Positions 14,160 through 15,498 of a stretch of DNA of 15,498 nucleotides are shown here, in pieces (positions within the stretch are counted from its first letter, which is position 1; every line of letters begins with the position of its first letter). The translations under genes and the position numbers were made by a program. Under the pieces are notes generated by a model. It saw nothing but the letters and a program-made list of their open reading frames with translations, ran no database searches and was not told the DNA's origin. Source of the DNA: a virus (taxonomy: Duplodnaviria > Heunggongvirae > Uroviricota > Caudoviricetes); the IMG/VR virus record IMGVR_UViG_2693429582_000026. One strand, 5' to 3'.

Positions 14160-14495
14160 ATGGATTTGAATAAATTCGATGAGCCATTCAGCCCTGAAGA
14201 TATCGAATGGCGAATACAGCAAAGCGGTAAAACACGCGATGGCAAAGTGTGGGCTATGGTGCTGGCTTATGTCACGAACAGGGCAATCATGAAACGCCTG
14301 GACGATGTTTGTGGCAAAGCAGGATGGCGTAATGAATACCGCGATATTCCCAACAACGGCGGCGTTGAATGCGGCATATCAATAAAAATTGATTCCGAAT
14401 GGGTAACCAAATGGGATGCTGCTGAAAACACGCAAGTAGAAGCAGTCAAAGGTGGTCGTTCCGGTGCAATGAAGCGCGCTGCCGTTCAGGCATAA
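14160..14495 (+). CDS. Rad52/Sak-like single-strand annealing protein, N-terminal 111 aa; probably a truncated or decayed gene
   Basis: ATG 14160 with GAGGTG RBS. FSPEDIEWRIQQSGKTRDGKVWAMVLAYVTNRAIMKRLDDVCGKAGWRNEY fits the Rad52-family pattern (DIEWR...A..LAY...R.VM.RLD.V.G...W). The ORF is about half the usual length and is followed by ORF-like sequence in another frame (14497..14739) with one internal TGA. Confidence 0.5.
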   Translation: MDLNKFDEPFSPEDIEWRIQQSGKTRDGKVWAMVLAYVTNRAIMKRLDDVCGKAGWRNEYRDIPNNGGVECGISIKIDSEWVTKWDAAENTQVEAVKGGRSGAMKRAAVQA

Positions 14496-14759
14496 CATCG
14501 CCGAGAAATCGAAAGAAAAACAGAACAAGGTAAACGTTGATCTTGCAGCATCAGGCATGGAGTACAGAGAGCGCCTTAACATACCTGTTATCACTGAGCA
14601 GGTATCATGAGAGCAACCTGAGCACTCACGCGAGTATTTCATGGAGCGCATCAGATACTATCGCGAGCAGTCGTTAAACATGCCCAAGGGAAGCAACCCA
14701 TGGTATATCGATATGGATGAACAGAACGCCAAGAAGTAAACGCAATTTGAACGAATGCG

Positions 14760-14815
14760 AACCCGCCGAGTGCGGGTTTTCTTTTATCTGAACTCGCTAC
14801 GGCGAGTTTTGTTTT
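14760..14815 (+). terminator. Tandem rho-independent terminators
   Basis: AACCCGC-CGAGT-GCGGGTT followed by TTTTCTTTT (14760-14785), then AACTCGC-TACG-GCGAGTT followed by TTTTGTTTT (14791-14815). Confidence 0.65.
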
Positions 14816-14828
14816 ATGGAGACAAGAA

Positions 14829-15173
14829 ATGTCAGATTTGGCTATGAAGGTTTTGAAATGGCAATCGACTGGCGATGTTGGCATCAGTAGCGCAACTCTT
14901 GCCTCAATCGCATGTGGACTGAAAAAGAATATCTATGGTCATCACTTCGGCGCTCCACATGATGCAGCCGATTTCCGACGATGCGTTGCGCTTGTCGAGC
15001 AGATTCCAGAAATCAGGGATTCATTCGACAAGGTTGCAAAGCGCGTTCCGGCATTCAAAGGCATCCTCAACGAATGGGATTCTCTCGTTGCTCTGTTGAA
15101 GTCTGAAATGAAGATACACGGAAACAAAGCACCAGAGACTTACAGAAGAATCAGCGAGCTACGCAAGGACTAA
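14829..15173 (+). CDS. Hypothetical protein (114 aa)
   Basis: Track ORF, ATG 14829 with GGAGA RBS, directly after the tandem terminators. No family recognised. Confidence 0.5.
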   Translation: MSDLAMKVLKWQSTGDVGISSATLASIACGLKKNIYGHHFGAPHDAADFRRCVALVEQIPEIRDSFDKVAKRVPAFKGILNEWDSLVALLKSEMKIHGNKAPETYRRISELRKD

Positions 15174-15297
15174 CCACAGTCTCACACTCGATGAGGCCTG
15201 TTCATTTCTAAAGATATCCAGACCTACCATTGCTGCATCAATGAGGTTTTTTATTGCCTGATTTGCAGGTTCGATTCCCTATTCGGAGATAGCACTC

Positions 15298-15498
15298 ATG
15301 CAACACGAACTACAACCTGATTCACTGGTTGATTTGAAATTCATCATGGCCGATACTGGCTTCGGTAAAACCTTCATCTATGACCGGATTAAGTCCGGAG
15401 ACCTGCCTAAAGCCAAAGTTATCCACGGACGAGCAAGATGGTTATATCGTGACCATTGTGAATTCAAAAATAAGCTCTTAAGCCGCGCCAATGGGTAA
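15298..15498 (+). CDS. AlpA/Xis-like small DNA-binding protein (candidate excisionase or regulator), 66 aa
   Basis: Track ORF ending at the window edge with TAA. ...TGFGKTFIYDRIKSGDLPKAKVIHGRARWLYRDHCEF... resembles the AlpA-family helix-turn-helix (STIYRxIKxGxFPxPxKLG.R...W). Position toward the int end of the left arm is consistent. Confidence 0.55.
   Translation: MQHELQPDSLVDLKFIMADTGFGKTFIYDRIKSGDLPKAKVIHGRARWLYRDHCEFKNKLLSRANG

What the first reader, a model, noticed from the sequence alone, without database searches (positions are those of the whole stretch)
14160..14739. Rad52-like annealing protein gene looks decayed (frame change plus in-frame stop)
The ORF at 14160..14495 has a Rad52/Sak-like N-terminus but ends at 111 aa. 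ORF-like sequence continues in the +1 frame from about 14497 to 14739 with a single TGA at 14608-14610. This fits a frameshift plus a nonsense mutation in what was once a full-length recombinase of about 200 aa. Together with the disrupted O gene it suggests a prophage undergoing domestication. No exo/bet/gam-like genes are evident in the window.
Basis: partly seen in the sequence, partly recalled or inferred. Interest (0 to 1): 0.4.

Follow-up and report, generated by a model that had tools for sequence, protein, structure and literature searches.

The report
Deletion scar joining two dead prophage genes
The short Rad52-like gene is a real remnant, but it was cut by a 3-4 kb deletion that joined it to a different, already dead gene (a DNA polymerase III theta/HOT homologue), which is ordinary prophage decay.

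Summary
The sequence facts hold. ORF 14160..14495 encodes 111 aa with a Rad52/Rad22 N-terminus. The +1 frame is open to 14739 apart from one TGA at 14608-14610.

The intact gene is 708 nt (235 aa) in 396 of 405 matching E. coli records and in phages such as HK75, mEp235, mEpX2 and Sf6. The window keeps codons 1-110.

The sequence after 14489 is not the rest of that gene. It is a homologue of the DNA polymerase III theta subunit (phage P1 HOT type, PF06440, E 3e-28). Intact relatives are 85 aa and start MSGHNIAEK.

A deletion joined the two genes at a 4-bp microhomology (TCAG, 14486-14489). It measures 3,274 bp against one related prophage and 4,462 bp against another. It removed the recombinase 3' end, ssb, the Abc2 anti-RecBCD gene, several small genes and the theta ATG.

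The theta gene was already dead. All seven related copies examined carry a 1-nt deletion in codon 3. The TGA is an older CGA-to-TGA change, and other lineages carry further lesions.

RefSeq already annotates both as pseudogenes. This is ordinary prophage decay and of low interest.

The parts
14160..14495 (+). Truncated Rad52/Rad22-family (Sak-like) single-strand annealing protein gene. Codons 1-110 (14160-14489) are native. Codon 111 (GCA) and the TAA stop come from the other side of the deletion.
   Evidence: Pfam PF04098, E 2.1e-18. tblastn of the intact 235-aa protein gives residues 1-110 at 100% identity to 14160-14489 and nothing for residues 111-235. RefSeq annotates it as a pseudogene 'missing C-terminus'.
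14486..14489 (+). Deletion junction: the 4-bp microhomology TCAG, present at both parental sites.
   Evidence: Similarity to intact rad52 genes ends at 14489 and similarity to theta loci begins at 14486.
14490..14739 (+). 5'-truncated pseudogene of a DNA polymerase III theta subunit / phage P1 HOT homologue. The start codon was lost in the deletion. The stop is TAA at 14737-14739.
   Evidence: Pfam PF06440, E 2.8e-28, 97.9 bits against a cut-off of 34.6, model positions 2-67 of 70. Intact 85-aa homologues start MSGHNIAEK. RefSeq annotates it as a pseudogene with an 'internal stop'.
14490..14491 (+). Site of an older 1-nt deletion in theta codon 3. Intact genes read ATG TCA GGT CAT; here the sequence is ..TCA GG CAT.
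   Evidence: DNA alignment with the intact genes L007 and L008 and with related pseudogene copies L004, L005, L010 and L012-L015.
14608..14610 (+). In-frame TGA in the theta remnant, at the position of an Arg residue that is invariant among the intact homologues (CGT or AGA there; CGA in the divergent pseudogene copy L015).
   Evidence: 72 of 90 E. coli records carry an identical 57-mer around it.
14759..14809 (+). Two terminator-like hairpins with T tracts (14759-14779 and 14790-14809) just downstream of the theta remnant.
   Evidence: Consensus scan only. They are conserved together with the theta locus in relatives.

Best explanation
The region is a deletion scar in the early-left (pL) operon of a roughly 50-kb lambdoid prophage. 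The prophage lies between argW-intS and torI-dsdC in an E. coli O103 genome.

The ancestor carried an HK75-type recombination module: a Rad52-like annealing protein of 235 aa, SSB and the Abc2 anti-RecBCD protein. Several small early genes followed (DUF2737, ead/Ea22-like and hypothetical genes), then a theta/HOT-like gene, a 114-aa ORF and the excisionase TorI.

One illegitimate recombination event between two TCAG tetranucleotides removed everything from codon 111 of the recombinase gene up to and including the ATG of the theta gene. The loss is 3,274 bp against strain 1223 and 4,462 bp against strain ECONIH6.

What remains is a 111-aa ORF (110 native residues, then Ala and a stop) abutting a theta remnant with no start codon. 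The theta gene was already a pseudogene before this event. It had a 1-nt deletion in codon 3 and a CGA-to-TGA nonsense change, both shared with related prophages that lack the large deletion.

Shown here: the identity of both genes, the junction, the deleted content in relatives, and the shared older lesions. Inferred: that the event was an intramolecular microhomology-mediated deletion, and that the 111-aa product cannot act as a recombinase.
For: **Source and annotation**
- The window is 100% identical to E. coli O103 ML775, where RefSeq annotates two adjacent pseudogenes: Rad52/Rad22 'missing C-terminus' and pol III theta 'internal stop'.

**Gene identities and junction**
- Pfam gives PF04098 for 14160-14492 and PF06440 for the +1 frame.
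- Related prophages at the same dsdC site (L004), and L005, have the collinear order rad52(708 nt)-ssb-abc2-...-theta-114 aa ORF-torI.
- Similarity breakpoints fall at 14489 and 14486, with TCAG on both parental sides.
- None of the deleted proteins (ssb, abc2, DUF2737, ead, hypotheticals, rad52 residues 111-235) is found anywhere in the window.

**Full length is the norm**
- The 708-nt gene is full length in 396 of 405 E. coli records and occurs in phages HK75, N7, mEpX2, mEp235, IME10, ECP1 and Sf6.
- 19 invariant alignment columns lie beyond residue 110, including W111-Y118.
- In the AlphaFold model the cut falls at the end of helix 100-110. It removes helix 115-119, three strands and a C-terminal three-helix domain.

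**Theta was already dead**
- Intact homologues are 85 aa.
- The 1-nt deletion is present in all 7 related copies examined. L015 keeps CGA but has a 2-nt deletion, and L014 has an extra TAG.
- The pseudogene differs at 12 of 63 columns that are at least 90% conserved, against a median of 1.5 and a maximum of 6 for intact homologues.

**Independence of the junction**
- The junction 34-mer also occurs in an IMG/VR contig that is identical to window 896-15498.

**Literature**
- The HK75-type module (anti-RecBCD + SSB + annealing protein, no nuclease) is described in PMC12315714.
- HOT is a theta homologue that can stabilise epsilon (PMC2528190).
Against: - The direct ancestor is not available. The left flank is only 94.6% identical to L004 and about 98% identical to L002 and L005, so the exact deleted length and content are inferred from mosaic relatives.
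- I could not inspect reads. The IMG/VR record may derive from the same or a clonally related strain, so an assembly artefact is not formally excluded.
- No experiment shows that the 111-aa fragment is inactive.
- The structural match to RAD52 and Mgm101 has high probability but low TM-scores of 0.23-0.45.
Confidence: 0.92

Rival explanations
1. One reading: one recombinase gene of about 200 aa that suffered a frameshift near 14495 and a nonsense mutation at 14608, so that 14497-14739 is its displaced C-terminal half.
For: Two adjacent open frames on the same strand with one stop look like a frameshifted gene.
Against: Residues 111-235 of the intact protein give no tblastn hit in the window. 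The downstream frame matches pol III theta at E 2.8e-28 and aligns end to end with 85-aa theta proteins. DNA similarity to intact rad52 genes stops abruptly at 14489.
Confidence: 0.01
2. The junction is an assembly or consensus artefact, and the real genome has the intact module.
For: Only 1 of 5,426 complete E. coli genomes has the junction. Reads were not available.
Against: A 4-bp repeat cannot cause a mis-join in assembly. The flanks are single-copy and collinear with relatives. A second public record (IMG/VR UViG_2690316086_000022) carries the identical junction.
Confidence: 0.03
3. The arrangement arose by illegitimate recombination between two different phages or prophages (mosaic exchange), not by deletion within one prophage.
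For: The left and right flanks have different best relatives and identities: 94.6% and 99.1% to L004, 98.3% and 99.4% to L005. Lambdoid early regions are known mosaics.
Against: Both flanks occur in the same order and orientation in single prophages at the same or a related site. One intramolecular event is enough. The outcome for gene content is the same either way.
Confidence: 0.04

Closest known systems
Rad52/Rad22-family (Sak-type) annealing protein of the HK75-type Rec module of lambdoid phages (HK75, mEp235, mEpX2, Sf6), as classified by Zheng et al. 2025 (PMC12315714)
   Same: Bases 13900-14489, which include the first 330 nt of the gene, are 93-98% identical to these phages. The gene sits in the same position after cIII, kil and a 56-aa ORF in the pL operon. 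The Pfam family is the same.
   Different: Only codons 1-110 of 235 remain. The partner genes ssb and abc2 are absent.
Human RAD52 N-terminal domain and yeast Mgm101 (PDB 1KN0, 1H2I, 8BJM, 9YI9)
   Same: They are the best and only consistent structural matches to the model of the intact phage protein: the top 17 hits, with Foldseek probability 0.91-1.00. They share Pfam family PF04098.
   Different: Sequence identity is 12-16% and TM-scores are low, 0.23-0.45. phmmer finds no PDB sequence match at E below 0.01. The window copy is truncated inside the conserved domain.
Phage P1 HOT and E. coli HolE, the theta subunit of DNA polymerase III
   Same: PF06440 match over model positions 2-67 of 70. 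The reconstructed protein is 67-78% identical to intact 85-aa prophage theta proteins.
   Different: The window copy has no start codon, a 1-nt deletion in codon 3, an in-frame TGA at an invariant Arg, and 12 changes at conserved positions. It is a pseudogene.
KplE1 / CPS-53-type prophages at argW-dsdC, with IntS and TorI at opposite ends
   Same: intS lies next to tRNA-Arg at one end and torI next to dsdC at the other.
   Different: This is a roughly 50-kb lambdoid prophage with largely intact morphogenesis genes and cargo (nleD, sodC), not the short K-12 remnant. The comparison with K-12 rests on my own knowledge and was not tested here.

Membership tests
Rad52/Rad22 family (Pfam PF04098) | Significant match to the family profile above the gathering score | tested here: met
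   The 111-aa fragment scores 67.2 bits, E 2.1e-18, against a cut-off of 20.3. The intact relative scores 91.9 bits, E 5e-26.
Rad52/Rad22 family (Pfam PF04098) | Complete N-terminal annealing domain (full profile coverage) | tested here: not met
   The fragment covers model positions 7-125 of 153; the intact relative covers 7-153. Invariant residues W111-Y118, F124, A125, W148 and others are lost.
Rad52/Rad22 family (Pfam PF04098) | Rad52-type fold (beta-hairpin, beta-sheet and long helix) in the intact relative | tested here: inconclusive
   AlphaFold model with mean pLDDT 80. The top 17 PDB matches are Mgm101 or RAD52 at probability 0.91-1.0, but TM-scores are only 0.23-0.45.
Rad52/Rad22 family (Pfam PF04098) | Ring oligomerisation and single-strand annealing activity | not testable with these tools
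   Needs biochemistry or a recombineering assay.
HK75-type lambdoid Rec module (annealing protein + SSB + Abc2 anti-RecBCD) | All three genes contiguous in the pL operon | tested here: not met
   tblastn with SSB and Abc2 from L004 finds nothing in the window. Relatives L002, L004 and L005 have all three.
DNA polymerase III theta / HOT (Pfam PF06440) | Significant match to the family profile | tested here: met
   97.9 bits, E 2.8e-28, against a cut-off of 34.6, with the TGA read through.
DNA polymerase III theta / HOT (Pfam PF06440) | Intact ORF of about 76-85 aa with its own start codon | tested here: not met
   The ATG is deleted, codon 3 has lost 1 nt, and there is a TGA at 14608-14610.
DNA polymerase III theta / HOT (Pfam PF06440) | Binding and stabilisation of the epsilon proofreading subunit | not testable with these tools
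   Known for HolE and P1 HOT from the literature (PMC2528190). It is not expected for a pseudogene.
Programmed recoding (selenocysteine or readthrough at the TGA) | Conserved TGA with a downstream RNA structure, in an otherwise intact and constrained ORF | tested here: not met
   The fold of 14600-14670 has z = -0.98. There is no Rfam hit in the region. Sister copies carry CGA plus a 2-nt deletion, or an extra TAG. There is an excess of changes at conserved sites.

The most novel reading that the evidence does not exclude
The 111-aa N-terminal fragment, still placed behind kil in the pL operon with its native start, might be expressed on induction or during superinfection. It could then act as a dominant-negative subunit that poisons the ring assembly of Sak/Rad52-type annealing proteins of incoming phages, a form of exclusion. 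Nothing here supports this. The junction occurs in 1 of 5,426 complete E. coli genomes plus one identical IMG/VR contig, so there is no sign of selection, and the fragment lacks invariant residues of the domain.
Probability: 0.02. Interest if true: 0.5.

Novelty: already known. Interest (0 to 1): 0.08.

Why it matters
It matters mainly as a correction. Two adjacent open frames with one stop were read as a single frameshifted gene. They are in fact remnants of two unrelated genes brought together by a deletion.

For annotation, this prophage has lost its whole homologous-recombination module (annealing protein, SSB, anti-RecBCD) and also has a frameshifted O replication gene. It is therefore probably impaired in replication and phage-driven recombination, while still carrying cargo such as nleD and sodC.

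It adds one ordinary example to the known pattern of prophage decay and of recombination-module loss in lambdoid prophages. No open question becomes testable because of it.

Tried and rejected
- **Frameshift model.** tblastn of the intact 235-aa protein against the window found only residues 1-110. Rejected.
- **111 aa as a natural short form.** 396 of 405 E. coli records have the 708-nt gene. The best 120 database homologues are mostly 225-250 aa. Rejected.
- **TGA as recoding or selenocysteine.** There is no stable structure downstream (z = -0.98) and no Rfam family in the region. Sister copies carry different extra lesions. Rejected.
- **P0001, a 93-aa 'intact' protein with W at the TGA position.** Its contig (L010) carries TGA and does not translate to the protein under table 11, so the gene caller used another code. 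It is not an intact allele.
- **Sequence search of the intact recombinase against PDB chains.** No hit at E up to 0.01. Only the fold search linked it to RAD52 and Mgm101.
- **Junction 34-mer in other collections.** No match in JGI metagenome contigs or GTDB genome contigs. One identical IMG/VR contig.
- **Lopes et al. 2010 (PMC2896510).** It has no specific mention of the enterobacterial members. It was useful only for the Sak-Rad52 relationship.

Full report
**1. Observation**

The ORF at 14160..14495 (+) exists. It has an ATG start, a TAA stop at 14493-14495, and encodes 111 aa. It matches Pfam Rad52_Rad22 (PF04098) at E 2.1e-18 over model positions 7-125 of 153.

The frame that starts at 14161 is open from 14473 to the TAA at 14737-14739, with one in-frame TGA at 14608-14610.

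**2. Where the window comes from**

Window 14000-14900 is 100% identical to E. coli O103 strain ML775 (NZ_CP193495.1, reverse strand). The window is the early region of a lambdoid prophage of about 50 kb. The prophage runs from tRNA-Arg (argW) and intS at one end to torI next to dsdC at the other.

On the + strand of the window, the pL operon reads: N, two hypothetical genes, a gp17-type superinfection-exclusion gene, cIII, kil, a 56-aa ORF, the Rad52-like ORF, the second frame, a 114-aa ORF, and torI.

RefSeq already annotates 14160-14489 as a Rad52/Rad22 pseudogene 'missing C-terminus'. It annotates 14479-14739 as a 'DNA polymerase III subunit theta' pseudogene with an 'internal stop'.

**3. 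The downstream frame belongs to a different gene**

With the TGA read through, the +1 frame matches Pfam DNA_pol3_theta (PF06440). The score is E 2.8e-28 and 97.9 bits against a cut-off of 34.6, over model positions 2-67 of 70.

A database search with a reconstructed protein found 676 homologues. Almost all of the best 120 are exactly 85 aa, are named DNA polymerase III subunit theta, and start MSGHNIAEK or a close variant.

In contrast, residues 111-235 of the intact Rad52-like protein have no tblastn match anywhere in the window. The 'frameshift plus nonsense in one gene' reading is therefore refuted.

**4. The junction**

- Intact Rad52-like genes are 708 nt (235 aa), for example WP_000365280.1 in strains 19KM2326N and 1223.
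- DNA similarity of the window to those genes ends at 14489. Similarity to theta loci begins at 14486.
- The left parent reads ...GCCGTTCAG|TGGGG. The right parent reads ...GACAATGTCAG|GCATAAC. The window reads ...GCCGTTCAGGCATAAC.
- The join is therefore at a 4-bp microhomology, TCAG. By my own rough calculation, a random junction would show 4 bp or more of microhomology about 1.5% of the time.
- Against L004 (strain 1223, same dsdC site) 3,274 bp are missing. Against L005 (ECONIH6) 4,462 bp are missing.

The missing interval holds:
- the last 378 nt of the recombinase gene;
- ssb (PF00436);
- the P22-type anti-RecBCD gene abc2 (PF11043);
- a DUF2737 gene;
- hypothetical genes;
- an ead/Ea22-like gene;
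- a DUF551 gene (in L005 only);
- an 80-aa ORF;
- the ATG of the theta gene.

None of these is found elsewhere in the window. The deletion ends exactly at the G of the canonical theta ATG.

**5. Full length is the norm for the recombinase**

- Of 405 E. coli records that match the 708-nt gene, 396 cover at least 80% of it.
- The exceptions listed include O111 strains with IS1203 inserted in the gene. Strain TW10598 has an independent deletion at nt 531 that fuses the gene to a pyrophosphohydrolase fragment.
- The region containing the first 330 nt of the gene is present at 93-98% identity in phages HK75, N7, mEpX2, mEp235, IME10, ECP1 and Sf6.
- The best 120 of 5,593 homologues are mostly 225-250 aa.
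- In an alignment of 33 homologues, 19 invariant columns lie beyond residue 110. The first eight (W111 G112 I113 G114 R115 Y116 L117 Y118) follow the cut directly.
- An AlphaFold model of the intact protein (mean pLDDT 80) puts the cut at the end of helix 100-110. The cut removes helix 115-119, three strands and a C-terminal three-helix domain.
- The model's only consistent PDB matches are yeast Mgm101 and human RAD52 (top 17 hits, probability 0.91-1.0), although TM-scores are low.
- I infer that the 111-aa product cannot act as an annealing protein. This was not tested.

**6. The theta gene was already dead**

- A DNA alignment with intact genes (L007, L008, L011) shows ATG TCA GGT CAT AAC in the intact genes. 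All related E. coli copies examined (L004, L005, L010, L012-L015) and the window read ATG TCA GG- CAT AAC.
- The TGA replaces an Arg codon that is invariant among 46 intact homologues.
- 72 of 90 E. coli records have an identical 57-mer around the TGA.
- The most divergent copy (L015) keeps CGA but has a 2-nt deletion upstream. L014 has an additional TAG.
- The reconstructed protein differs at 12 of 63 columns that are at least 90% conserved. Intact homologues differ at a median of 1.5 and a maximum of 6.
- There is no notable RNA structure after the TGA (z = -0.98) and no Rfam family in the region.
- The single 'intact' 93-aa protein with W at the TGA position (P0001) comes from a contig that carries TGA. 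It is a gene-calling artefact.

This is the pattern of neutral decay, not recoding. The most likely order of events is: first the 1-nt deletion, then CGA to TGA in one sub-lineage, then the large deletion in the ML775 lineage.

**7. How widespread the large deletion is**

- Only 1 of 5,426 complete E. coli genomes has a match that spans the junction.
- The junction 34-mer is absent from JGI metagenome contigs and from GTDB representative genomes.
- It is present in one IMG/VR contig, UViG_2690316086_000022, which is identical to window 896-15498.
- This second record argues against an assembly artefact. I cannot show that it comes from an independent strain.

**8. Comparison with known systems**

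The ancestral module matches the 'HK75-type' Rec module of lambdoid phages: anti-RecBCD, SSB and an annealing protein, with no nuclease (Zheng et al. 2025, PMC12315714).

Sak-type proteins are the phage annealing proteins directly related to Rad52 (Lopes et al. 2010, PMC2896510).

HOT of phage P1 is a theta homologue that can replace HolE in stabilising the epsilon proofreading subunit (PMC2528190 and the references it cites).

The window holds remnants of members of two known families. Neither remnant is intact.

**9. Verdict**

The finding is real as sequence. It is a deletion scar between two pseudogenes and is already flagged in RefSeq.

The claim of prophage decay is supported: O is frameshifted, the Rec module is deleted and the theta gene is dead. 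'Domestication' in the sense of selection was not tested. The structural genes and the cargo (nleD, sodC) are annotated as intact.

Interest is low, and the novelty class is already known.

Noticed in passing
window 14305-14339: A type I-E CRISPR array next to queE in E. coli JNE151685 (NZ_AP027258.1, 22 repeats) holds a 32-nt spacer identical to nt 149-180 of the Rad52-like gene allele of strain 1223. The window's protospacer (14308-14339) differs at two positions (14312 and 14330). It is preceded by ATG (14305-14307), which fits the AWG PAM of type I-E as I know it.
   Followed up: partly
window 7864-8735 (- strand): The lambda-O-type replication gene is split into two ORFs (8178..8735 and 7864..8238). 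RefSeq flags it as 'frameshifted'.
   Followed up: partly
window 448-703: Rfam matches above the gathering score to the prophage-borne small RNAs AgvB (anti-GcvB, 448-509 +) and STnc100 (510-703 -).
   Followed up: no
window 4973-5171 (- strand): Rfam matches to C4 antisense RNA (4973-5056), isrK (5082-5158) and the c4 a1/b1 target element (5119-5171). They lie next to antirepressor genes, which suggests a P1/P7-type antirepressor control unit inside the nin region.
   Followed up: no
window 1476-1724 (- strand): Three tRNA genes (annotated Ile, Arg, Arg) lie downstream of the Q antiterminator and a DNA methylase fragment. Genes for a TerB-family protein, a DUF3927 protein and a SASA-family esterase follow. 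From my own knowledge this position is typical of Stx phages, but no stx gene is annotated here.
   Followed up: no
L003 3161-4040 (E. coli TW10598): An independent deletion truncates the same Rad52-like gene at nt 531 and fuses it to the 3' part of a dATP/dGTP pyrophosphohydrolase gene. O111 strains carry IS1203 in the same gene. Loss of this module recurs.
   Followed up: partly
L004 5973-6000 (theta locus of relatives; deleted in the window): In relatives, an upstream in-frame ATG (product MFRRRRVDNVR...) overlaps the preceding ORF and is what RefSeq uses as the pseudogene start. The strong AAGGAGG Shine-Dalgarno sequence instead precedes the canonical ATG, which is now out of frame.
   Followed up: partly
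ML775 record 1520954-1524243 (outside the window, L017 21955-25244): sodC and an IS66-family element (ISCro1) lie between the tail assembly genes and gpJ. nleD and a DUF1076 gene lie near intS. The prophage is a cargo-carrying lambdoid element with mostly intact late genes.
   Followed up: no
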